A stretch of 64,000 nucleotides of DNA, taken from contig CP068257.2 of assembly GCA_009914755.4 (NCBI GenBank), positions 22,080,001 through 22,144,000 of the forward strand, in the 5' to 3' direction. The notes under the pieces are model-generated. The model saw only the letters and a program-made list of their open reading frames with translations, ran no database searches and was not told the DNA's origin. Made by a program: the position numbers and the translations under genes. Source of the DNA: the human T2T-CHM13v2.0 reference genome, Homo sapiens. Positions 5,201-64,000 of this stretch are shown here, piece by piece (position 1 is the first letter of the stretch; each line of letters begins with the position of its first letter).

Positions 5201-5887
5201 TATATAGTTGGAGTGTAAAAGACAAGTGGCCACAGAACAGTCCCTACGCCTGGAAACTTAATTAACTTATATTTTACCATCATAAGAAACAAGGTTAGGG
5301 TCTCTACCAAGCTCTGCTATACACACACAACCCCTTTTACCAAAACCTCTGAGACTTGATCTCTGGCAAACCTGGTTTCAGAGTAACACCTCCCGTCGTA
5401 TCTTTACCAACATGCATATAAAACATTTTCTCATTATATTTTACTCTCATAATGCAATAAAATCTTTTATTAACCTTTACTTAGGATATAAGATTATTTG
5501 AGCACCCACCGACAACAAACTGAGTGTAGCATCTCTATTTTATTACCACCTAACCACTCGTCATTGTGGAGAAGACCAACGTTTTCAGAACCCCTCCCAA
5601 CTCACCATCATGGTTTGTGGAAAGTAAATCTCTTTCCACTCAGGTGTTGTGATATGAAAAGGAATTAAAGAGAGAGAAATACAGCGCTGGGATAAACAGC
5701 AAAAATGAGAACAATTTTAATCTGTTGTGTGTGAAATTAAATATCATGTATCATTTCCCCATTAGACAAACTATGTCCAGAGTAACTAAATATAGTTTTC
5801 CTGATTGTTTCTGCTTGGAATCTTACCCATTCAGCGCTTTTTTCTTTTACATTTGAGGAATTAATTTCAAACTTTAAGTTTCAGCTT

Positions 5888-5968
5888 ACCAACATGGCAC
5901 ATGTATACATATGTAACAAACCTGCACGTTGCGCATATGTACCCTAAAACTTCAAGTATAATAAAAAA
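5888..5968 (+). mobile_element. L1 (LINE-1) extreme 3'-end fragment (~80 bp) with poly-A, flanked by 11-bp TSD AAGTTTCAGCT
   Basis: ACCAACATGGCACATGTATACATATGTAACAAACCTGCACGTTGCGCATATGTACCCTAAAACTTCAAGTATAATAAAAAAAA is the canonical L1 3' end. Direct repeats AAGTTTCAGCT at 5876-5886 and 5969-5979. Confidence 0.8.
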
Positions 5969-7148
5969 AAGTTTCAGCTGATATATTGTGTAATAAGTTA
6001 TTTTAATAGACTTTAAAAAGCTCAATTTTCATTCAGGGGAAAAATTGCATAAGAGTACTGAAGATATCTTGAATGCCAAGAAGCTCTTGGAAAACTAACT
6101 TTTTTTAAGTAAAATGCAGAAAAACAGAGAAAACTCGAAGCCAATAAATTGGGCACGGATTTTAAAATTAGAAGCCACCACACTTGCAGAAGCAGTATAA
6201 AGTTTTTAAAATCTGGGATGTATTTAATAGACTCAATTATTTTCCATTTAAAATTTTAATATTTTAATAAAGCTAAATTCATAGGTAGAGAAATATTATT
6301 GGCATTGGTATATGGAAAAAATTATTGTATGTACTTGTATGTTGCAGCCAAGTACATTGGTATATATCACAACTTTAAAGGAGTGGAGGGAGCTCAGAAA
6401 ATACCCCTGTTTTGTCATCCAAATTAAAAGTGCCAATAATAAGCACAGAAACTCACATCCCCTTACTAATTTGTTGGCAGTTTTCCCAGAAACATATTTT
6501 ATGTAGATAAGTCTTCACTTTGCTCATACATTTCATTATATAAATTATTTTTACAAATTAATTTTTCATTAGGCACAAGAATATGGTTCACTAAATATGC
6601 TGAAATTTACTACATTATTTGCATCTGAGGAATATATGACATGCCACTGACTTTTACTAAGACGGTCTAAGCATTAGAGTGTGTTATGGTCCCCCGTGTG
6701 AATACATTTCTGAAATGTTTCCAACACTTATAGCCTGGCATTCAGCCCCCATGATGATCTAGCTCAAAGACATTTGTAGTCTTATCCTGTGCTATTCCTC
6801 TTTACATAGTAGATCCTGCAAACCAGTGGAACCATTGCTATTCACTAACATGCCTTTTGCACTTTCTATTCTTCTTTTATTTGCATCTGTCATTTTCAAT
6901 AATTTTGACCTCATGACCAAAAATTATCTTTAAATTATTGAGGAGGATCCCCCCCAAAAATTTATGTAGGCTGAATCTGTTAATACCAGGCTAAAAGTTA
7001 AATGTTTTACAAAATAGTATTTTAATTAATACTTCAAAACATAATCATGATAGATCTATTAAAGTTTTACATAATATATATATATGTGTAGTTTCTAAAA
7101 CAAAATAAAATAGTGAGCAGAAGAGAATTATTTTACATTTTAGCTACT

Positions 7149-32578: not shown

Positions 32579-33349
32579 GGTAGCACGTCAAGCCTACATG
32601 ACAGTGTAGATTTGCTTCCATTTAAGTCCTGGAGCAAAGCCTAACATTTTACTATTTTTCAGGAATTCAGCAGACAGAGGCCTGAGAGTTTGCTTAATGA
32701 GGAGCTGTAACACCTGAGATCTATGACTGCTGAATTCCGTTCACCGTAGTGAACATAAAATCAAACTGGACTTGAAGGATAATGTGCTTCCACGGCTGTG
32801 CGACTGAGTGAGAACTGAACCCTTGGGTAGTCGAGGATAGGAGCATGAGCAGGTAACTGAGAACGAGGGGAGGAGAGGCTAGAGCATGGAATTTCGGTGT
32901 TTTGGGTTAACATTTCAACACAGAAATCAAGGTTTTGCTTCCTTTTACTCAAGTAGACCCCACTAGCTGAAACTAGTATTTTGTCACCTTTACTAGATTT
33001 TCCATTCTTTGGCAGTCCCACATTACTTGAAAACCACTGGGATGTACAATTATGAGCCGAAAAAGAAATTTACCACTCATTTGAGGAGACTCAGAAAACT
33101 GAAAGAAGAAGATTAAGCTAAATGCTTGGAACAGGTCACTTCCATCATTAGAAGAAACGACAAATGAAACAGACTTTAAATAATGCCAGTCTTGGTTAGA
33201 TTGCTTATAGAGTTAAGATTGGGGTATGAAAAAGACTTTCTCACATTTTTAAACAATGATTTTAAAATTTAAAACTACAGTAGACTAATTGAAAACAGGA
33301 TACTTACTTTTGTGAAATTTGAATCATATGATTAGATTAGTGGCCTTAA

Positions 33350-33353
<4 letters not shown>

Positions 33354-33395
<42 letters not shown>

Positions 33396-33680
33396 GACGC
33401 AGTTTCACTCTTCTTGCCCAGTATGGAATGCAATGCGCAGTCTCGGCTCACTGCAACCTCCACCTCCCGGGTCCAAGTGATTCTCTTGCCTCAGCCTCCT
33501 GAGTAGCTGGGATTACAGGCGCCTGACACAATGCCTGGCTATTTTTTTTTTTTTAATTTTTAGTAGAGACAGGATTTTACCATATTGGCCAGGCTGGTCT
33601 TGAACTCCTGAGCTCAAGTGATCTGTCTGCCTCAGCCTCCCAAAGTGCTGGGATTACAGGCATGAGCCACCGTACCCGGC
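33354..33680 (-). mobile_element. Alu (AluS-like), antisense, carrying an uninterrupted 41-nt poly-T tail and an expanded internal T14 linker
   Basis: T41 at 33354-33394, then GGACGCAGTTTCACTCTTCTTGCCCAGTATGGAATGCAATGCGCAGTCTCGGCTCACTGCAACCTCCACCTCCCGGG...GGCTATTTTTTTTTTTTTTAATTTTTAGTAGAGACAGGATTTTACCATATTGGCCAGG...GCATGAGCCACCGTACCCGGCC. Confidence 0.9.
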
Positions 33681-33940
33681 CAAGATTTCATAATCACATA
33701 TCCACATAAAATATTTTAAAGCTGTGTGCCTTCCTTCACATTTTTATGGTTTCTCTCTAAAATGAACTGTTCTAAGCTTAAGAAATTAAATATTGTACAA
33801 TTTTCACATAATTGTAAATATTATAAAATAATATATTCATGTAATCATTAATATTAAAAATTTGCTATTGTATATCAAAACACCACAAAAATTAATTTTA
33901 ATTTAAAAAGTATTTTTCTTTTTTTTAGTTGGAAATTTTA

Positions 33941-34205
33941 TTTTATTTTATTATTTTGTTTTATTATTATTATACTTTAAGTTTTAGGGTACATGTGCAC
34001 AATGTGCAGGTTAGTTACATATGTATACATGTGCCATGCTGGTGTGCTGCACCCATTAACTCGTCATTTAGCATTAGGTATATCTCCTAATGCTATCCCT
34101 CCCCCTCCCCCCACCCCACAACAGTCCCCAGAGTGTGATGTTCCCCTTCCTGTGTCCATGTGTTCTCATTGTTCAATTCCCACCTATGAGTGAGAACATG
34201 CGGTT
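33941..34205 (-). mobile_element. L1 3'-end fragment (~230 bp + T/A-rich tail), antisense; ~14-bp TSD AGTT(G/A)GAAATTTTA
   Basis: The reverse complement of L1 end-of-ORF2/3'UTR: TTTAAGTTTTAGGGTACATGTGCACAATGTGCAGGTTAGTTACATATGTATACATGTGCCATGCTGGTGTGCTGCACCCATTAACTCGTCATTTAGCATTAGGTATATCTCCTAATGCTATCCCTCCCCC...CCACCTATGAGTGAGAACATGCGGT. Flanks AGTTGGAAATTTTA (33927-33940) and AGTTAGAAATTTTA (34213-34226). Confidence 0.85.
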
Positions 34206-34577
34206 CTTTAACAGTTAGAAATTTTATAATGACCCTTTTTCTTCTTGAGCTCACAATTTCATTCTACTTCTTTCAGAGAATTCTATACCACAGTAAAATA
34301 TTAGATAATTGTAATTATTTTCGATGACAATTTTAAATATTTTTTGCTACCAGATACGTAAAATATGAATGTGAAGTGAAAAAAATTTTTTTTAAATTCT
34401 TGCCCCATAAGACATTTAGTATTATGAAACCAAACATTATTTTGGTTTGAGGTGTCATTTTAGTTATTAATGTAGACTGCTGATCATAACATAAATATAT
34501 TACGTAACTTTATATATGATTATAGATTATCAATGCCTAAACATTTTAGAACTGCACACCACTTACAAAGGTAAATG

Positions 34578-34895
<318 letters not shown>

Positions 34896-35277
34896 TCAAT
34901 AGTTCATTTGGTCCTATATGGCTATCAATTCCTGTTAGCGTGACACAGGCTTCAGAACTAAGTATCTCCATAATTTCAGTTTTTACTAATGTAACATTGA
35001 GAAATTTTGTTTCATATACCTAAGCGCATATGAATGGGAGGTACCTCACTGTACAATGTCACTCAACAAAATGTCAAAGAGAATACAGTGCTCTATTATA
35101 CGATTTGTCCAAAATGATTATTCAACTGACAAATCAATTCACTCTTCCTCCTATTATGTTGAAAACGACATACTGGAAATATATGATAAACAAAACAATT
35201 TATTTCTCAGTCACTAGATGTAACCATTGGACAACATCGTTTAGGAATAAACAATGATATTGAAAATAAAAACAAGA

Positions 35278-35739
<462 letters not shown>

Positions 35740-36244
35740 TCAAGTTATATTTATCCTTTAAGATTTTGTATAAGGCATGTATCTATGTCTATGCATGTAT
35801 GTGTCTATGCATACATATATAATATACAGTATTTTATGTATATGATTGTGTGTGTATATATATAATATTAAAACAAAATAAAAGCCAATACATTTTAAAA
35901 AAACATAATTATACAGTCTAACATTAGTACTAAGAAGACTTAGATAAAGCAATTAATCTAAAATATACAAGGGGGCAAGTCAGAAGGCACACATATTTGG
36001 TCTTCAAAGATTATAAAATTTTGCAGACTTTTCCATATTGAATATTTAAAAAATCAAATAATATTAGAGCTAAACACAATGCATTCCAGTTACTGCCAAA
36101 ATAGAGCAAAATTTCTACTGAAGAAACCTGTTTGTATTTGTGCAAATTGAGGGCATGACATCAGACAAATTAGATATGGTAAGTTCTAAAGGACACTGTT
36201 ACAAAACTATACTTTATGCAAATGTGCTTGCATAAAAACAATTT

Positions 36245-36880
36245 CCTGCACCCATCAACTCGTCATTTAACATTACGTATATCTCCTAATGCTATCCCTC
36301 CCCCCTCCCCCCACCCCACAACAGGCCCCGGTGTGTGATGTTCCCCTTCCTGTGTCCATGTGTTCTCATTGTTCAATTCCCACCTATGAGTGAGAGCATG
36401 CGGTGTTTGGTTTTTTGTCCTTGAGATAGTTTGCTGAGAATGATGGTTTCCAGCTTCATCCATGTCCCTACAAAGGACATGAACTCATCATTTTTTATGG
36501 CTGCATAGTATTCCATGGTGTATATATGCCACATTTTCTTAATCCAGTCTATCATTGTTGGACATTTGGCTTGGTTCCAAGTCTTTGCTATTGTGAATAG
36601 TGCTGCAATAAACATACATGTGCATGTGTGTTTATAGCAGCATGATTTATAATCCTTTGGGTATATACCCAGTGATGGGATGGCTGGGTCAAATGGTATT
36701 TCTAGTTCAAGATCCCTGAGGAATTGCCACACTGACTTCCACGATGGTTGAACTAGTTTACAGTCCCACCAACAGTGTAAAAGTGTTCCTATTGCACACC
36801 AACATGGCACATGTATACATATGTAACTAACCTGCACATTGTTCACATGTACCCGAAAATTTAAAATATAATAAAAAAAA
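36245..36880 (+). mobile_element. L1 insertion with twin-priming inversion: inverted segment 36245-36794 (ORF2 C-terminus through 3'UTR, minus strand) joined to direct 3'-terminal segment 36795-36880 (plus strand, poly-A)
   Basis: 36245-36794 is the reverse complement of L1 (CCTGCACCCATCAACTCGTCATTTAACATTACGTATATCTCCTAATGCTATCCCTCCCCCC...CAACAGTGTAAAAGTGTTCCTATTG). 36795-36880 is sense L1 (CACACCAACATGGCACATGTATACATATGTAACTAACCTGCACATTGTTCACATGTACCCGAAAATTTAAAATATAATAAAAAAAA). The two segments are contiguous in L1 coordinates. ORF 36373..36846 (157 aa, ...MIDWIKKMWHIYTMEYYAAIKNDEFMSFVGTWMKLETIILSKLSQGQKTKHRMLSLIGGN) is an L1 ORF2p C-terminal remnant. Confidence 0.85.
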
Positions 36881-37489
36881 TTCCTTATAAAATGTAAAAT
36901 TATCTTTTTGTCAGCAGAACCATCAGTTTTTTTGTTTTGCTTTTATGCCTCCTATATTAAGAAGATCATCTCACATAGCAAAGCTATCTGCTAAAAAGCT
37001 TTCTCTTTCACCGACCCCATGTGAAACATTGTACACCTTTTTCTGGGCCAAAGTACTTAATGTGAATGTTATACAGGAAAGTGTAAAATAATACACCATT
37101 AATTTTACACTACATTTTGATATCAGAGCTACCCTGGCTCCCAGAGAATGAACAACTGTCAGGAAAGTTTCTTTCAGGAGGAAGGGCAGAGAAAGATCAT
37201 AAGCCAGGGAGACAGAGGAAGCTAGATCCTTATCCAGGAGCTAACTCCAACACAAACCAGTTCTGACACCCTGAGACACCCGTAACCTTCCTAAGTCTCA
37301 GTCTCTTTATCTACAAAGTGTGTTTTGTTAGCTTTAAAAGATTCAATACAGGCAAAGTGTCACAAGTAAATGTAAGTTATAAACTTTATTTCAGAGACCT
37401 GGAAGGCATACCAAGGCAAACAGAAGAGCTGCAGCAAATGAAGACAGTGTGGTATTGGCAAAATAAGAGGCAAACAGATCAAATATTCA

Positions 37490-38475
37490 GTAGTCACATG
37501 TGGCTAGTGGCTACTGTATTGGACAGTACAGCTGTTTAGTATTTATTTATTCATTCTACTGTTATTATGTGAGTTCTTTCTACTTTGGAGATATTACTAT
37601 TAATGTTCCTAGGAACATTCTAATACTTGTTTTTAGTGTTTATTTGTATGTGTCTCTGTTGCATATGTATGCAGAAGTGGAATTGCTGGCTTATAGATTA
37701 TCATATGTTCAACTTCATAAGTTACAGGCAAACAATATTCCAAAGTGGTTGTATCAATTTCCCTCCTACCAGCAGTGTGCAAATTAATTTAAAAATTATG
37801 TCTACACAAAAACCTGCACACAGATATTTATAAATGCCTTATCATAACTGCTAAAACTTGGAAGCAACCAGCATGCCCTTCAATAGGTGAATGGATACAT
37901 AACTCATGGTATAGCCAAAAATGAAGGATTTAGTTATGTATTCAAGATTCATAATAAATGAGCTGTCAAGCCATGAACAGACATGGAGGAAACTTAAATG
38001 CATATTACTAAGTGATAGAAGCCAATCTGAACAGTCTATCTCCTGTATACTTTTAACTATTTGACATTCTGGAAAAGGCAAGACTAAGGAGATATTCAAA
38101 AGATCACAGTTTCCAGAGGGAAACCATGGGGAAGGCAGGGGATGAATAGCTGGAGCACAGAAGATTATTAGGACAGTGAAATTATTCTGTATGATACTAC
38201 TATGGTGGACACATACAGAGTACAATGGTCTAGACTCATACATGGTACAATACCAAGAGTAAACCCTAACATCAGTTATGAACTCTGGGGATAATGAAGT
38301 GTCAGGTTGGGTTCATTGATTGTAACAAATGTCCCACTCGGGTGCTGTGGGATGTTGATAATGGAAGAGGCTGCATATTTGTGGGGACACAGTAAATGAG
38401 AATCTCTGCATTTTTGCTCAATTGCTGTGACGCTAAAGCTTCTCAAAAATAAGCTATTAAAAAACTAAATAAATC
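37490..38475 (+). mobile_element. Older L1 (L1P/L1M-type) 3' portion (end of ORF2 + 3'UTR), sense, diverged
   Basis: Similarity to ancient L1 3' ends: GCAGAAGTGGAATTGCTGG...CAAAGTGGTTGTATCAATTTCCCTCCTACCAGCAGTGT, then ...AACCAGCATGCCCTTCAATAGGTGAATGGATACATAACTCATGGTATAGCC...AGAGGGAAACCATGGGGAAGGCAGGGGATGAATAGCTGGAGCACAGAAGATTATTAGGACAGTGAAATTATTCTGTATGATACTACTATGGTGGACACATACAGAGTACAATGG...CTCAAAAATAAGCTATTAAAAAACTAAATAAA. Subfamily and exact 5' boundary are uncertain. Confidence 0.5.
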
Positions 38476-39959
38476 CTTTAAATGGTAATATAGTGGAATA
38501 ATGACATTTTATAGGCAAAATGACATAAAGAAAATATTGATATATCTGATATCAACATTTCCATTTTCACAGATTTACTTATATATGGGATTATGGTTAA
38601 TTGATGGTAAAATGTTATTTGCAAATTATAAGAATTTTTTAACCTATTGTTAATAGGTAATAAGGCCTGATGCTACAACAGGCAAAAGATTTAAAAGAGT
38701 ATAAAGTGAAAAGCTTGATGATAACTGTGGCTCGCTTTATCATCAAACTTTTGTTACCTCATCAACGATTCAGTGAACATATGCTATTTGCTAGCATTGT
38801 CAAAGTACATGAAGAAAATGAATCTCCTAGTATATCAAAACATTACAGCGAATGTTATAGACAAAATTGGAGACTTACGCTACATGATTGTACTTGCTTC
38901 AGAAGAGAATATGAATAAATGAAAAGAAAATTTGTTAGTTTTTTTTTTCAAGAGATTCTCCAGAGAGGAAGAAAAAACAGTTTGCACCATAAAAAATAAG
39001 CAAGAATAATTTTAGCTGAAGACTAGAACAGGATAACTAGATGAGCTAACCCAAAAGAGGGGCTACTCAAAATTTAGTTAGTTGTGAATTTCATCCAAAC
39101 ATTTATTTGTCAACTATGATTTACTAGTTGTTGTATTAGACATTGAAGATACAAAAGTCAGTAATTACAGAGGAGCCTACTGCATAGTGAGATAGTAACA
39201 CAAACACATGATTGTAATACAATTGTAATATTATTTAAGCATAAAGCCCAGTGCATCCTGATAACTTTTAGTAGTTGCTGTTAAATACTAAATGCCAGAC
39301 ATATTAAGTATTTACTTTTAAGATCTCCTGTGTCTGTGGCCTCCTATTCTTATTACTCCTCTGGTGGTAGTTTTATTACTAGCTCAGGGGCCTAGCTGAT
39401 CCATATAGCAGTGCATGAATTTCTGTAAAGCTATTTGTATAAAGAATCTCAAAGCCCATCATCTGGGTTTAGGGAATTGAGCCATTACAAGATTGCAAGA
39501 TCACCTAGTTTTGTTCCCCCGGATATTTCTTTAATAACTCTTTACTATGCTCACTTTAGGAGTAGAGACGCCAAAGTTGCAACTGAATCTGTCATGCTCT
39601 GCTTTACTTTGAGGTAGAGAAAAGGTCTATTGACTCTTAATAGGTGCAAAAATTCTGTATATATGTTGGAGAATTTTGAGCAGACATCTCACATCTAAGT
39701 GAAAGAGTTGAAACTGAAGTAACAGGAGAATTTTGCAAAAACACTTAATTCATCTGCATAAGTCACTCTGCTAGAATATAAAAGGGACACCTGTACACAT
39801 AGGACACATGAGACCTGATAAGAAGACAAAAATCTGTGACTTTCAGTTATGTAATTCAGGGTAACGATATGAAGCTTGTTTAATAAAATGATCTGGAGAC
39901 TAGAATGAAATGCAACTGAGATAAAGATCCCAACTTAACTTTTAAAACTTACACTCTTT

Positions 39960-40614
39960 TTGTTTGTTTGTTTGTTTGTTTTTATTATACTTTAAGTTTT
40001 AGGGTACATGTGCACAACATGCAGGTTAGTTACATGTGTATACATGTGCCATGCTGGTGTGCTGCACCCATTAACTCGTCATTTAACATTAGGTACTAAA
40101 GGTCATTATTTTTGAGTCTGTCTTTATCTCTAAGCGCTGACTATTCACAGATATTTAAAGTTCTGAAAGCCTTTTTCCCTCTTTCTCTCTCTCTCTCACT
40201 CTTGAATGTGTCCTTTTGAGCTTTGACTATAAATGTAAAAAGAAAGAATAGCAGCTTTTATGTATTTAAATACAGTCCAAGGTAGTCAGTCATCTCCTGG
40301 TTCTAATTTCATACGATGATCTGAGCTTAGATCACTCTTCAATCTTTAGATAAGTTTTTAAAAACAGAGGCAAAATTAACACATTTTAGATAAACCTATG
40401 TACAGTTTTAATTTTTGAGAAGAGGAGGGAAAGGAACTTAACTACTTAGTGCATCTGTGGTAAGACAAGTTGTCATCCTTGTTGGTATCCATTACAAAAA
40501 AGTCAATTGCAAATGGTTTTGTATTTCTTAGTTGTACAAAAATCTGGGTCTGTGTTTCTACATGTTTTTCAACTAATAAAAAGCTTGTAAAACTAAAAAA
40601 ATAAAAATAAAAAT
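39960..40614 (+). mobile_element. 655-bp TSD-flanked retrotransposed insert (probable processed retrocopy / 3' fragment of a polyadenylated transcript): (TTTG)5 + antisense L1 3'-end piece (39982-40094) + ~500 bp unique + AATAAA + A-rich tail
   Basis: Perfect 16-bp direct repeat AAAACTTACACTCTTT at 39944-39959 and 40615-40630. The right end reads AACTAATAAAAAGCTTGTAAAACTAAAAAAATAAAAATAAAAATAAA directly before the 3' TSD. The TSD starts with AAAA and is preceded by TT, consistent with an L1-endonuclease TT|AAAA target. Confidence 0.6.
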
Positions 40615-41501
40615 AAAACTTACACTCTTTGAAGGAAAGTTTTCCCTCCTATAAAAAGAGCTTATGAGGTAAATTTAGAGGACTTTAGGAATAAATACTA
40701 TAACATCTGTTGTTTAATATATATGACAGTATTTGTTTAATATATATCACAGGTTTACTTCGAATGCTTCTGGATAAATTAGGAAAAAAAATGGCTATGA
40801 TGGACAGTGGAAGGTTTGAATTTAGTTACATTTCAGTGATGGAATTATCAATCCAAAAGACATGTAAAATCATGTAACGTACAAATTAAGTAAACTGGGT
40901 GGGGGAGAAAGCAAAAAATGAAAAACTATAGCAAAAAATGGAAGAGTAAAATATTTTCAGAAAACACATACTAGATAAAAAGAAGACAATGGAGAGAGAA
41001 CCTATACAACGGAGGTGCGACATAATTAATATCCTGGACAGAAGGAAACGGCTGTGTCAGGGTCACCTGCATACTGGGACAGGCAGAGTGAAGAAAACAG
41101 TGGAAGCTTTTTCTTCTTTCATTTGTTAAAGTTAGCTGTTTAGCTTTATAAAGATATCCCTAGGAATATGACATTGTAACTTTTCTCTGGCTTTGTGCTT
41201 TCTTAGATACTAAATTCTGCCTTGTGGTGACGAAAATTAATGGCATAAATGCATTCATAAAGGAAGTTATTAAAGAGTTATGTGACTGAATTACAAGTAA
41301 GGATTATTATACTTGCAAGTTCATAATGTAAATTTTTAAAAAAAAAACATAATACAGAAAGGGCGTGGCTTCTAAAAACACAGTCCCGAGAAGAGTTGTA
41401 CAATTCATAAGGATATCTAAGCTGTGTATAAGTAGTTTGTGTAAGTGCTTGACTTTCCATAATTTTGATCCTGTAGTAATTTTTTTAAAAAATTAAAGGC
41501 C

Positions 41502-41803
41502 GTAGGGACATGGATGAAGCTGGAAACCCATCATTTTGAGCAAACTATCGCAAGGACAGAAAACCAAACACCGCATGTTCTCACTCATAGGTGGGAATTG
41601 AACAATGAGGACACTTGGACACATGGTGAGGACTATCACACACTGGGGCCTGTCGTGGGGTGGGGGGAATGGGGAGGGATAGCATTAGGAGATATACCTA
41701 ATGTAAATGGTGAGTTAATGGGTGCAGCACACCAACATGGCACATGTATACATATGTAACAAACCTGCACGTTGTGCACATGTACCCTAGAACTTAGAGT
41801 ATA
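41502..41803 (+). mobile_element. L1 3'-end fragment (~300 bp, end of ORF2 + 3'UTR + poly-A), sense; TSD AA(AA)TTAAAGGCC
   Basis: GTAGGGACATGGATGAAGCTGGAAACCCATCATTTTGAGCAAACTATCGCAAGGACAGAAAACCAAACACCGCATGTTCTCACTCATAGGTGGGAATTGAACAATGAGGACACTTGGACACA...GGGAGGGATAGCATTAGGAGATATACCTAATGTAAATGGTGAGTTAATGGGTGCAGCACACCAACATGGCACATGTATACATATGTAACAAACCTGCACGTTGTGCACATGTACCCTAGAACTTAGAGTATAATAAAAAAAA. AAAAAATTAAAGGCC at 41487-41501 and AATTAAAGGCC at 41807-41817. ORF 41514..41759 is an ORF2 remnant. Confidence 0.88.
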
Positions 41804-43979
41804 ATAAAAAAAATTAAAGGCCATATATTTACTTTAGAATGTAATGAATTCTTGAAAACAGAAAGACTAAGAGTTGATCAATCTGGTGAAGGCATCATCC
41901 TTTATTGTGTATAAAGTTTGTTTAGGGGAAGCACTGTTCCTTGAGGAGCTGATAGAGTCAATGTTTAACAGTAGGGATTCTATCCCCATGTTTTCTTATC
42001 TTGGAGATTGAGGGGGTGAAAGTGTCACTGTGTCTGCTGGAGAGCTCAGATTTAAATTAAATATTAGACCACAATAATTTTATGATCATAGGTTTCTAGG
42101 TGTTTGGTATTTTTATTACTCTATTTCTACAGGGTTTGTTTGTTTTGATAGCTGTCATTTTAATTGTTTGGCTTTATCATACATTATCTCCACTCCCCTT
42201 TAGAATTGTGCCAGACTAGAGGAAATGAGGATAAATCTGGAAGAGAGAGAAGAAGAGAGAGGTAGAGGAAATAAAATTATTGACTTTGGATCATTTTTGA
42301 TACAAATAGTAACAGAAAGATATTTTTATTAAACATTCCTGGTACACGTGAACTTAAAATGTGGCATATATATATGCTGACATCCTATTAGGTATTTTTC
42401 ATATCATTCATGTGCTAGATGAAATAGAATGAGAATTAGAATGAAGCAAAACATACCAGATTATGTAAATAACAGTGAGAAAGATTGTGGAGTGAGTGAG
42501 TTAATAAAAAATCCCTGAGCACCAAATCTGCTTCTGAGCCTTAGGTTAAGCATTGGAATGATTTCATCCAGAGTTAAAAATTTATCTTTGAATTAAATAT
42601 CTAAAGGGATACCTCAGAAGACTAAAATTAGAACCCTAGTTTCCTTCCAAGGGAAAAGATCAAATACATGTACAAACTTACATGTCCTTGTAATTGAGTA
42701 ACCTTCAGTTTGATTGAGAATTTAACACTGTAAATAAAAGGTAAGTTTTAATTTACCAGCTCCGTATGGGTTGTTGGAGAATTAAATCATTTTGGGGAGC
42801 CCATATTTGCATAACACAATTTATTATTTGTAATTAACTAACCTTTACAAAGTTCCATTTTTAATTTCCTCCTGTCAAGATATCTGGAAAATGCAAAGTT
42901 AATAAGCATTGCATATAAGGGACTGCGTTATTGTAGAAGCTTTGGTAAGCATTGGATGGATGAAACAGGCAAATCCCAAGTTAATTAAAGAGTTGTCAAC
43001 CCATCACATTGTTCACTTGAAAACATGTGGAGAAATATTTTATATTATTTCTAAGTAACAACATACATAAGTTATCATTTCGTAGAGTAATAAGCTAAAG
43101 TAACATTGACCAGCACTGTTTGATCAGCATTGTTTTCTTCTAGTCCTTCCTATTTTGTGAGCACCAAACATTCATAGCCGAGCAAAACCTAAATTAAAAT
43201 CAGATTATTAGATATAGTATATATATAATGATAAAATCCAATTAGGATATTATATTCTATCATTGGTATATATACATATATATTTTTGGACAATATTTTC
43301 AATAGGATGGGAAACAGTTAATCTCTACAGCACAAAAATTGATTACAGTGTTTTGACAATGATGGTTTCCATCACAATAGGATTATTATACTTTGTGTTT
43401 TGAGCAGAGAGAATTATAAATTATTATAAGTGATTAAAAACCAGTCAAAGTCGTGCAATGCTATGGAATCCATCAAACTAGAGGGTCCTTTACACCATGC
43501 CAGCACTCCACCAAAAGGATACCTAGAAATTTATTTTGCCTACTTCCAAGTCTAATAAAAATAATTAAAATTGACATTCTCACATTTGTTTTTTTCCTCC
43601 TTTTAATATTCTCGGCTAATAAGAAATATTGATGCTTCTTGGGATTTAATGGGTTTATTTTTAATAAGAAAAAAAAACAAAAGCAATTACAAAGAAAACA
43701 TCCATCCCCTACCCCCGACCTCAGAGTGTTATCAAGCTCTGCTTGATGCTTTATCTAACCATTATAGTACATAGAAACAAAAACAGTAGTAGTAGTTGGC
43801 CATATGAATCTAAATTAGATCCAATGCTTTGTGGGACTGTAGGAGGTCTTCTATGTCAGTTTCTTGAATGTACATATGAGACACCCACAAGATCAAGTGC
43901 GCAAGCTAGTGTAGCCATTCATGTCTTTCTATTTTACTAGGTTACTAACTTTTCTCAATATTTTAGTCTTTTTACTCGC

Positions 43980-61876: not shown

Positions 61877-62158
61877 GACATGATGGCTCATACCTGTAAT
61901 CCCAGCACTTTGGGAGGCTGAGGCGGGTTAATCACCTGATGTCAGGAGTTTGAGACCAGCCTGGCCAACAGGGTAAAACCCTGTCTCTACTGAAAATACG
62001 AAAATTAGCCAGGCATGGTTGTGGGCGCCTGTAATGCCACCTAGTCGGGAGGCTGAGGCAGAAGAATCACTTGAACTCAGGAGGTGGAAGTTGCAGTGAG
62101 CTAAGATTGTTACATTGCACTCTAGCCTGGATGACAAGAGTGAAACTCTGTCAAAAAA
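61877..62158 (+). mobile_element. Alu (AluS/J-like), sense, whose A-tail has expanded into the downstream purine microsatellite
   Basis: GGACATGATGGCTCATACCTGTAATCCCAGCACTTTGGGAGGCTGAGGCGGGTTAATCACCTGATGTCAGGAGTTTGAGACCAGCCTGGCCAACAGGGTAAAACCCTGTCTCTACTGAAAATACGAAAATTAGCCAGGCATGG...GAGTGAAACTCTGTCAAAAAAGG. Confidence 0.88.
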
Positions 62159-62159
62159 G

Positions 62160-62205
62160 GAAAGGAGGGGAAGGGAAGGGAAGAAGAGAGAGAGAGAGAG
62201 AAGGA

Positions 62206-62289
<84 letters not shown>

Positions 62290-62348
62290 GAAAGGAAGAA
62301 AGAAAGAAAGGGAGAGAAGGAGGGAGGGAGGAAGGAAGGAAGGAAGGA

Positions 62349-62416
<68 letters not shown>

Positions 62417-62738
62417 AAAGGAAAGGAAAGGAAGGGAAGGAGGGAGGGAGGGAGGGAAAGGAAGGAAGGAAAGAAAGAAAAAGGGAAGAAAGGAAAGAAA
62501 GGAAAGAAAGAAAAAAGAAAGAAAGAGAGAGAAGGAGAGAGGGAGGGAGGGAGGGAGGAAGGAAGGAAAAAAGAAAGGAAAGGAAAGGAAGGAGGGAGGG
62601 AGGGAGGGAAAGGAAGGAAGGAAAGAAAGAAAAAGGGAAGAAAGGAAAGAAAAAAAGAAGGAAAGAGAAGGAAAGGAATGAAGGGAGGGAGGGAGGGAGG
62701 AAGGAAGGAAGGAAGAAAGGAAGGAAGGAAGGAAGGAA
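62160..62738. repeat. Long compound purine microsatellite (GAAA)n/(GGAA)n/(GGGA)n/(GA)n, ~580 bp, all purine on the + strand
   Basis: Uninterrupted AAGGAAAGAAAGAAAG...GGAAGGAAGGAA...GGGAGGGAGGGA blocks seen directly. ORFs 62071..62826 (251 aa, KERKKERKK...), 62115..62681 and 62151..62762 (- strand, FLSFFLS...) are translation artefacts of this repeat. Confidence 0.97.
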
Positions 62739-64000
62739 ATGGTATTTTAAGAGGTTAGTCAAAATAATGACGTATTATTTTCTCTCAAGATCACAGACTC
62801 CTTACTTCTCTCCATGGATTCCTTAGGTGAAGACCACTTTCTGTAGATCAACCCCTCCTCATCCCCTATTTAATAACAGTTCATATCATAATGCTTCTTA
62901 ATAAATAATTTTATTTCCCTTTTCACTGATATGATTGGAAACTTTTTGAGGTCATCAACCTTTGTATGTTTGATGACATTGCCAGTGACTAATCAATAAA
63001 TATTTTGGAACAAGTAGAAGAGATCTTGCTGTTCACTCCCGGTGTCTCTCAAAGAAATCCAGCCCTGTGTAGGTGATTGCTAATAAGACTTATCTATTCC
63101 TAATATGAGTGTGAGATGAGGTGCTTCATGAGAACTATGACAAATTCCCAAAGAATTTAGTCCTCCCAATACGTTGGAACTAAGGCTAAAGTTTAGGCTG
63201 TCTCCTATGTCCTCCCTCAATAAATAAATAAACCTATTTATGTATCTAATAAATTACATTAGGATAAAATGTAAATGTTCTTAGTCAAGGAGAGGGAGAT
63301 AAGAAGGGAGAAACTGTCTCACCTGGCCCTATTTGCTACCCAGAAAACATAGGAAAATAAAGATATAAGAATGGGAATTTATGGAATATAAATGGAGAAG
63401 AGACACTAGCCAAGAGAAATTCAACCCCAGGTCCCTTGGAGTTAAGAAAGAAAAACATTAAATAGGCCCAGTTCTAATAATTCTAATAGGCATGCCTCTT
63501 AACAAAAACAAATCATCAAATGCTTAGGAATGAGACACCTCAATTTTCAAGTCTTTTTTGTCATGTAGAGAAGGCCCCTCCTCTGAAAAAGTCTCTCAGG
63601 ACATACGTCAGTCATGTTATCTTGTTATAGTCAAAGCAGTTACCACCTGGAAACCCTTCGAGATCAATGACCAAATGCTTAAAGTACCACTCAGTGATTG
63701 TGAAAGGATTAAACATCAATAAATGGCTAATATTGCACCTGGTAGTGAGTATGGTTGAGTTTCTCTCCAAATTTTCTTTCTGAAAATTTACAGAGCCTTG
63801 ATTATAAGCAATGTGCTTGATTCAGAAACATCAGCCAACTTGGAATTACAACTTGCACTGCTGGGTTTGTTTGCAAATAAAATAAAAGCAAGAAGAAAAA
63901 CACAGAGACAAGATTATAAAAGACACTAGAATTTGGAAAAGAGATTAAATATTATTAAAATATCATTCCTAGGAATTAGAAACAGTTCTGTAAGCAATAA

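What the first reader, a model, noticed from the sequence alone, without database searches (positions are those of the whole stretch)
36231..36896. L1 twin-priming inversion junction
A 550-bp inverted L1 segment (end of ORF2 to within ~85 bp of the 3' terminus; minus strand, 36245-36794) is joined to a direct 86-bp L1 3' terminus with poly-A (36795-36880). The two segments are contiguous in L1 coordinates with at most a 1-3-bp junction overlap (..CCTATTG|CACACCAACATGG..). This is the diagnostic product of twin priming during target-primed reverse transcription. Approximate TSD-like flanks are AAAAACAATTTCCT (left) and AAAAAAAATTCCTT (right). The event preserves an intact junction at base-pair resolution.
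Basis: partly seen in the sequence, partly recalled or inferred. Interest (0 to 1): 0.5.

Follow-up and report, generated by a model that had tools for sequence, protein, structure and literature searches.

The report
Ordinary 5'-inverted (twin-primed) L1 insertion
This is an old, dead, 635-bp fragment of the human-type LINE-1 retrotransposon whose front part was inserted backwards, a well-known by-product of how LINE-1 copies itself that affects about one in five of its insertions, so it is real but ordinary.

Summary
Window 36246-36793 (minus strand, 548 bp) carries L1 ORF2 codons 1137-1275, the stop codon and the first 127 nt of the 3'UTR. Window 36795-36872 (plus strand) carries the last 78 nt of the 3'UTR, followed by A8.

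If the inverted block is flipped and placed before the direct block, the result is collinear with L1. There is no gap or extra base at the break (…GGGTGCAG|CACACCAACATGG…). This was checked against 3 other L1 tails in the window and 115 L1 copies from host DNA in metagenome contigs.

The contiguity lies between the outer (left) end of the inverted block and the start of the direct block, as twin priming predicts. It does not lie across the physical junction CCTATT-g-CACACC, which joins L1 positions about 548 nt apart. Base 36794 (g) is either a 1-bp overlap or an untemplated base.

- One imperfect TSD pair brackets the composite (AAAAACAATTTCCT / AAAAAAAATT-CCT).
- The first-strand nick site reads TTTTT/AT.
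- The inverted block has no poly-T.
- Both flanks are free of L1.

Verdict: a textbook twin-priming product of an L1PA element about 3% diverged from consensus. It is already known and of low interest. One loose end remains: the short direct tail is more mutated (6/78) than the inverted part (13/548).

The parts
36234..36247 (+). Left copy of the target-site duplication, AAAAACAATTTCCT. Its last two bases, CT (36246-36247), are also readable as L1 (the complement of …AG). This gives a possible 2-nt microhomology for internal priming. The flank just upstream places the bottom-strand nick at 5'-TTTTT/AT-3'.
   Evidence: Sequence read. Direct repeat D2. Edit-distance nulls (2 edits; 1/90 and 18/1184 as good or better).
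36246..36793 (-). Inverted L1 block of 548 bp. ORF2 codons 1137-1275 lie at 36376-36792, the ORF2 stop codon at 36373-36375, and the first 127 nt of the 3'UTR at 36246-36372. The 3'UTR part ends …GGGTGCAG at the left edge. There is no poly-T at its left end.
   Evidence: ORF. PDB ORF2p match (E = 1.6e-87, residues 1137-1275). Alignments to other L1 copies.
36794..36794 (.). Single ambiguous base (g) at the physical inversion junction. It does not fit the inverted block, where the L1 consensus would require t. It does fit the direct block as the G of GCAG. It is therefore either a 1-bp overlap of the two cDNAs or an untemplated or mutated base.
   Evidence: Alignment column 360. The consensus reads GAAATAGG against CAATAGG in the element.
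36795..36872 (+). Direct L1 block: the last 78 nt of the 3'UTR, from CACACCAACATGG… to …AATATAAT.
36873..36880 (+). A8 run. It is the remnant of the poly-A tail merged with the A-rich start of the right TSD copy.
   Evidence: Sequence read.
36873..36885 (+). Right copy of the target-site duplication, AAAAAAAATTCCT. Against the left copy it has 1 substitution and 1 missing T.

Best explanation
This is a single LINE-1 (L1PA-type) retrotransposition event resolved by twin priming.

**Proposed sequence of events (inferred from the geometry)**

1. L1 endonuclease nicked the bottom strand at 5'-TTTTT/AT-3'.
2. The T-rich 3' end primed reverse transcription on the poly-A tail. This made the non-inverted cDNA, now 36795-36880.
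3. Before that cDNA had gone further than 78 nt, the top strand was cut about 14 nt downstream.
4. The freed top-strand 3' end (…AATTTCCT-3') annealed inside the same RNA at …GGGUGCAG, using at most 2 nt (CT:AG).
5. It primed a second cDNA that ran 548 nt upstream, into ORF2 codon 1137. That cDNA is now 36246-36793 in antisense orientation.
6. The first reverse transcriptase ran up to the second priming site, which explains the abutment at 0-1 bp.
7. The two cDNA 3' ends were joined without microhomology at 36793/36794/36795.
8. Gap filling produced the flanking target-site duplication.

**What is shown and what is inferred.** The anatomy, the collinearity, the TSD-like flanks and the nick motif are shown. 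The order of events is inferred from the established model (Ostertag & Kazazian 2001, as described in PMC2837659 and PMC12016303).

**Present state.** The fragment is a non-functional fossil. It is about 3% diverged from a consensus of related copies, which suggests an age of roughly 10-25 Myr (inference).
For: - ORF2p residues 1137-1275 are encoded on the minus strand without interruption.
- The reconstructed RC(inverted)+direct sequence is collinear across the break with 3 in-window L1 tails.
- It is also collinear with 115 L1 copies from metagenome contigs, 16 of them over the full 634 nt at up to 95.6% identity, with no majority indel at the break.
- The inverted block has no poly-T at its left end, and its outer end is the L1 position immediately before the start of the direct block.
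- The L1-like island spans only 36242-36903. The flanks 35612-36241 and 36904-37426 show no L1 similarity.
- The TSD-like pair differs by 2 edits in 14. Matches that good are rare in matched nulls.
- The nick motif TTTTT/AT matches the EN consensus TTTT/A quoted in PMC2837659 and PMC12016303.
- No inverted repeat links the two blocks, so there is no long cDNA overlap.
- Literature base rate: 18-22% of L1 insertions are 5'-inverted, and in 46% of these the two cDNA ends lie within 20 bp of each other.
Against: - The TSD is imperfect (1 substitution and 1 indel). Its A-rich half cannot be separated from the poly-A tail, so if the full 14-nt TSD is right, almost no poly-A remains.
- The direct tail differs from the copy consensus at 6 of 78 sites, against 13 of 548 for the inverted block (Fisher p = 0.022). 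Other L1 copies do not show faster-evolving tails. Taken alone, this would hint at different ages.
- Microhomology at the internal priming site is at most 2 nt, and there is none at the inversion junction.
- The orthologous empty site could not be examined.
Confidence: 0.93

Rival explanations
1. Two independent events. An older, severely 5'-truncated L1 tail (36795-36880) was already present, and a later L1 fragment was inserted in the opposite orientation right at its 5' edge.
For: - The direct tail is more diverged than the inverted block (6/78 against 13/548, p = 0.022). Only 1 of 36 other copies has a tail that diverged.
- Another L1 tail in the window, at 5888-5970, is truncated within 3-4 nt of the same L1 position. 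Short tails of this length therefore do occur on their own.
Against: - The later fragment would have to be 3'-truncated with no poly-T, which is not what target-primed reverse transcription produces.
- It would have to end at exactly the L1 nucleotide where the older tail begins (0-1 bp), a coincidence of roughly 1 in several thousand.
- It would also have to land exactly between the old tail and its left TSD.
- No second TSD pair is visible.
Confidence: 0.03
2. A plain 5'-truncated 626-bp L1 insertion, followed later by a genomic inversion of its first 548 bp.
For: The end product would have the same L1 content and the same outer TSDs.
Against: - One inversion breakpoint would have to coincide to the base with the L1/TSD boundary.
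- No inverted repeats or duplications that could mediate such an inversion are present at the breakpoints.
- Twin priming yields this boundary automatically and is common.
Confidence: 0.03
3. An assembly or chimeric-read artefact created the inversion in the source sequence.
For: No independent copy of the junction was found in the collections searched. Those collections are not expected to hold this locus.
Against: - The junction is clean.
- The blocks abut exactly in L1 coordinates.
- The composite is bracketed by a TSD-like pair and a proper nick motif. A mis-join among dispersed L1 copies would not reproduce these features.
Confidence: 0.01

Closest known systems
5'-inverted L1 insertions made by twin priming (Ostertag & Kazazian 2001, Genome Res 11:2059; described in PMC2837659 and PMC12016303)
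   Same: - The 5' block is inverted and the 3' block is direct with an A-tail.
- The start of the inverted cDNA and the end of the non-inverted cDNA are adjacent in L1 coordinates.
- One TSD pair brackets both blocks.
- The EN-type nick site is TTTT/A.
- The total length (about 630 bp) and the block sizes are within reported ranges.
   Different: Nothing differs in kind. The non-inverted block is short, at 78 nt against reported medians of 253-571 bp. The join is nearly exact (0-1 bp) rather than a gap or a longer overlap. The TSD has decayed.
Simple 5'-truncated L1 insertions, for example the in-window copies at 41502-41813 and 5888-5970
   Same: They share the same L1PA 3' end, an A-tail, TSDs and an A-rich target site.
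   Different: Those copies lie in one orientation throughout. Here the 5' 548 bp are reversed.
Twin-priming variants with a 5' poly(T), and 'dual priming' (Meyer et al. 2010, PMC2837659)
   Same: The insertion is primed from both strands of the staggered break.
   Different: In those variants the non-inverted cDNA never leaves the poly-A tail, or a second RNA is primed at its poly-A, which leaves a poly-T next to the L1. Here the non-inverted cDNA extends 78 nt into the 3'UTR, and the inverted block starts internally with no poly-T.

Membership tests
LINE-1 (primate L1PA lineage) | Encodes ORF2p-homologous sequence | tested here: met
   The minus-strand translation matches human ORF2p residues 1137-1275 with E = 1.6e-87. 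Pfam has no model covering this C-terminal stretch (0 families).
LINE-1 (primate L1PA lineage) | Characteristic 3'UTR ending in an A-tail, collinear with other genomic copies | tested here: met
   The element is collinear with 3 in-window copies and 115 copies from metagenome contigs. An A8 run lies at 36873-36880.
LINE-1 (primate L1PA lineage) | Assignment to a named subfamily (L1PA2 to L1PA8) by diagnostic positions | not testable with these tools
   No Dfam or Repbase consensus library was available. From memory, the CACACCAACATGG and TAAATGACGAGTT motifs suggest a mid-aged L1PA (about L1PA5-7). Divergence from an ad hoc consensus is about 3%.
Twin-priming (5'-inverted) L1 insertion | Two blocks of one L1 in opposite orientation, with the 5' block inverted and the 3' block direct with poly-A | tested here: met
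Twin-priming (5'-inverted) L1 insertion | The priming end of the inverted block (next to the 5' TSD) and the 5' end of the direct block map to adjacent or near-adjacent L1 positions | tested here: met
   The join is …GGGTGCAG (36246) | CACACC… (36795), a 0-1 bp overlap. There is no indel against 115 copies.
Twin-priming (5'-inverted) L1 insertion | The inverted block lacks its own poly-A or poly-T | tested here: met
   The left edge reads …AATTTCC|TGCACCC with no T-run.
Twin-priming (5'-inverted) L1 insertion | One TSD pair flanks the whole composite, and there is no second pair | tested here: met
   The pair is 36234-36247 and 36873-36885, differing by 2 edits in 14. Matches as good occurred in 1/90 and 18/1184 of the matched nulls. 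No other flanking direct repeat was found. The pair is imperfect, so support is moderate.
Twin-priming (5'-inverted) L1 insertion | L1 endonuclease-type first-strand nick site (5'-TTTT/A-3') | tested here: met
   The bottom strand at the left TSD edge reads 5'-…GTTTTT/ATGCA-3'. The consensus is as quoted.
Twin-priming (5'-inverted) L1 insertion | Microhomology between the top-strand overhang and the internal priming site | tested here: inconclusive
   At most 2 nt (CT at 36246-36247), which is compatible with chance. The literature notes that microhomology is often small or absent.
Twin-priming (5'-inverted) L1 insertion | Both blocks have the same age and source | tested here: inconclusive
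   The inverted block shows 13/548 differences from the consensus and the direct block 6/78 (p = 0.022). No diagnostic linkage between the blocks could be established.
Twin-priming (5'-inverted) L1 insertion | The orthologous pre-insertion site lacks both blocks together and carries one TSD copy | not testable with these tools
   No primate genomes were available. The junction was not found in genome contigs or viral contigs. The junction ORFs are not on record.

The most novel reading that the evidence does not exclude
The excess of substitutions in the 78-nt direct tail (6/78 against 13/548) might be real rather than chance. It could reflect a difference in how the two cDNAs were made or repaired. 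For example, the short poly-A-primed cDNA may have stayed single-stranded longer and been damaged or filled in by an error-prone polymerase. Alternatively, the tail could be an older fragment next to which a new L1 cDNA was captured. Either reading would make this locus a small natural record of asymmetric fidelity in twin priming.
Probability: 0.04. Interest if true: 0.25.

Novelty: already known. Interest (0 to 1): 0.07.

Why it matters
It matters very little on its own. 5'-inverted L1 insertions have been known since 2001 and make up about a fifth of all L1 insertions, which means tens of thousands of cases in a primate genome. This locus is a clean teaching example. It shows an exact abutment of the two cDNAs, a blunt inversion junction and a recognisable nick site and TSD. 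It carries no coding or regulatory feature that the evidence points to. Its practical value is in annotation: the two adjacent, opposite-strand L1 hits should be merged into one insertion event.

Tried and rejected
- **Independent copy or ortholog of the junction.** An exact 24-nt junction pattern gave 0 hits in genome contigs and 0 in viral contigs. Exact-protein look-ups of the junction-spanning 157-aa ORF and of the 80-aa ATG-started ORF found nothing on record. The orthologous site could therefore not be examined.
- **Pfam.** A scan of the ORF2 C-terminal translation found no family. The PDB sequence search gave the identification instead.
- **Shared source lineage.** I tried to show that the two blocks share a source lineage through linked variant sites among 115 copies. 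No informative linkage emerged.
- **General tail divergence.** I tested whether L1 tails are generally more diverged than L1 bodies, which would explain the mutated direct tail. They are not (ratio 0.8).
- **APOBEC-type editing of the first cDNA.** I considered and rejected this. Only 2 of the 6 changes are G>A, and neither is in a TC context on the cDNA strand (by inspection).
- **Shorter TSD.** I considered a shorter TSD, AATT(T)CCT, with A6 as the poly-A tail. It puts the nick at AATT/G, a poor endonuclease site, so the 14-nt reading is preferred.
- **Literature.** The original twin-priming paper (PMC311219) is not held. The model is cited through PMC2837659 and PMC12016303.

Full report
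**1. What is in the sequence**

The window is AT-rich, repeat-rich primate-type DNA.

- On the minus strand, an open frame runs from the stop codon at 36373-36375 up through 36792 and beyond.
- Its translation matches residues 1137-1275 of human LINE-1 ORF2p (PDB 8sxt_A and three other ORF2p sequences) at E = 1.6e-87, with no stop or frameshift.
- Pfam has no model for this C-terminal stretch.
- Downstream of the stop codon, still on the minus strand, lie 127 nt of L1 3'UTR. They end …GATGGGTGCAG at window position 36246.
- On the plus strand, 36795-36872 reads CACACCAACATGGCACATGTATACATATGTAAC… This is the last 78 nt of the L1 3'UTR, followed by A8 at 36873-36880.

**2. Are the two blocks contiguous in L1?**

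The motif GGGTGCAGCACACCAACATGG spans the proposed break. It occurs intact, with at most 1 mismatch, in three other L1 tails in the same window, and never in shuffles.

- I flipped the inverted block and placed it in front of the direct block. The reconstruction aligns straight across the break to the in-window copies at 41502-41813(+), 34204-33961(-) and 40095-39976(-).
- For a larger reference set, I scanned metagenome contigs for a 41-nt L1 pattern across the break. This returned 120 host-derived L1-bearing contigs.
- Of these, 115 align across the break, and 16 align over the entire reconstruction (positions 2-636) at up to 95.6% identity.
- No position, including the break, carries a majority insertion or deletion relative to the reconstruction.

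The blocks are therefore adjacent in L1 to the nucleotide.

The multiple alignment (column 360) and the consensus show that base 36794 (g) does not belong to the inverted block. The consensus there is GAAATAGG, which would require t at that position. The base does fit the direct block as the G of GCAG. The two cDNAs therefore either overlap by 1 nt, or the base is untemplated or mutated.

**3. A point of geometry**

That is the physical inversion junction. It joins ORF2 codon 1137 to a 3'UTR position about 548 nt further on.

The L1-coordinate contiguity is between the left, outer end of the inverted block (36246) and the first base of the direct block (36795). This is exactly the arrangement that twin priming predicts. 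The inverted cDNA starts at the 5' TSD from an internal site on the RNA. The poly-A-primed cDNA can extend only up to that site (model as described in PMC2837659, and PMC12016303).

**4. Flanks**

- **Isolation.** BLAST of 33000-42500 against the 120 L1-bearing contigs shows an isolated L1-like island at 36242-36903. Nothing matches in 35612-36241 or 36904-37426. The flanks are unique within the window.
- **Sequence at the edges.** The left flank ends …TGCTTGCAT|AAAAACAATTTCCT. The right flank begins, after TATAAT, with AAAAAAAATTCCT|TATAAAATG.
- **TSD match.** The two 13-14-mers differ by one C/A substitution and one T in a T-run. The repeat finder reports the core as D2.
- **Significance.** The left 14-mer has only 9 matches within 2 edits in both strands of the window, including itself and the right copy.
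  - Among 90 other A-run starts, one is as good.
  - Among 1184 other AAAA-started 14-mers tested against the real right flank, 18 are as good.
  - The TSD is thus supported at roughly the 1% level.
- **Nick site.** The bottom strand at the left TSD edge reads 5'-GTTTTT/ATGCA-3', a good L1 endonuclease site (consensus TTTT/A).
- **Poly-A.** If the 14-nt TSD is right, very little true poly-A remains. A shorter TSD (AATTTCCT) would leave A6 but gives a poor nick site.
- **Microhomology.** The last two TSD bases (CT, 36246-36247) can also be read as L1. This allows 2 nt of pairing between the top-strand overhang and …GCAG in the RNA. The inversion junction itself has no microhomology.

**5. Mechanism**

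The data fit one retrotransposition event by twin priming.

- **Shown:**
  - the block orientations;
  - the exact abutment;
  - the absence of poly-T on the inverted block;
  - the single TSD-like pair;
  - the nick motif;
  - the L1-free flanks.
- **Inferred from the established model:**
  - the first cDNA was primed on poly-A and stopped after 78 nt, where it met the second primer;
  - the second cDNA was primed by the top-strand 3' end and ran 548 nt into ORF2;
  - the two 3' ends were joined by end-joining.

**6. Rivals**

- **Two independent insertions.** This would need a 3'-truncated, poly-T-less antisense L1 fragment. Its end would have to coincide to the base with the 5' truncation point of a pre-existing tail. 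It would also have to land exactly between that tail and its TSD.
- **A later inversion of a plain insertion.** This would need a breakpoint exactly at the L1/TSD boundary. No mediating repeats are present.
- **An assembly artefact.** This would not reproduce the exact L1 abutment together with a TSD and a nick motif.

All three rivals are kept at low probability.

**7. A loose end**

Against the pile-up consensus, the inverted block differs at 13 of 548 sites (2.4%). The direct tail differs at 6 of 78 sites (7.7%; Fisher p = 0.022).

- The 33 nt of the tail inside my search pattern are identical by construction, so 6 of 45 is the unconstrained figure.
- Two of the six sites are polymorphic among copies (23-29%), and one of these is a CpG.
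- Four sites are private to this element.
- Other copies do not have faster-evolving tails (tail/body ratio 0.8). Only 1 of 36 copies reaches this tail divergence.
- I found no lineage linkage and no APOBEC-like context.

With so few sites and a post hoc test, I treat this as probably chance. It is the only feature that leans toward a two-age reading, and the exact contiguity heavily outweighs it.

**8. Age and family**

Overall divergence from the ad hoc consensus is about 3% (19 of 626). At commonly used primate neutral rates (own knowledge), this suggests roughly 10-25 Myr.

From memory of the diagnostic 3'UTR motifs, the element looks like a mid-aged L1PA (about L1PA5-7). This was not tested, because no curated consensus library is available here.

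The ORF2p numbering, together with the remembered position of ORF2 in L1HS, puts the insertion at about nt 5400 to the end of a 6-kb element. The inversion point is near nt 5945/5946. These figures are approximate.

**9. Comparison with what is known, and verdict**

- 5'-inverted L1 insertions account for 18.4% of germline and 21.9% of somatic L1 insertions.
- In 46% of them the two cDNA ends lie within 20 bp of each other (PMC12016303).

This locus is a member of that class in every feature I could test. Its only particularities are a short non-inverted block (78 nt) and a nearly perfect abutment.

It is already known biology and of low interest.

Noticed in passing
window 5888-5970 (+), flanks 5874-5887 and 5963-5977: Another L1 3' tail of about 78 nt plus A8, in one orientation. 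It is bracketed by a perfect TSD (AA)GTTTCAGCT. Its 5' truncation point (…TACCAACATGG) lies within 3-4 nt of the inversion point of the studied element, so the same L1 position has been a cDNA end twice within 64 kb.
   Followed up: partly
window 41502-41813 (+), TSDs at 41487-41501 and about 41808-41822: A plain 5'-truncated L1 of about 300 bp, from the ORF2 end to the poly-A. It has a perfect 15-bp TSD, AAAAAATTAAAGGCC. It is a useful internal contrast to the decayed TSD of the studied element.
   Followed up: partly
window 33961-34204 (-) and 39976-40095 (-): Two more short, 5'-truncated L1PA 3' ends on the minus strand, both carrying CACCAGCATGG rather than CACCAACATGG. Their A-tails have decayed into (AAT)n- and (AAAC)n-like repeats. 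Their TSDs were not worked out.
   Followed up: no
window 33352-33688, 34563-34885, 35248-35611: Three stretches of about 330 bp that each match about 40 of the 120 unrelated host-derived contigs. By size and copy number they are probably Alu elements. They were not examined.
   Followed up: no
window 62153-62739: A purine-rich microsatellite of about 590 bp, (AAGA/GGAA)n, on the plus strand. It explains the strong GC and AT skew of the last 2 kb of the window.
   Followed up: partly
window 36373-36846 (-): A 157-codon open frame runs from the ORF2 remnant across the inversion junction into the antisense of the direct L1 tail. It is a chance extension of the still-open ORF2 C-terminus, and no identical protein is on record.
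   Followed up: yes
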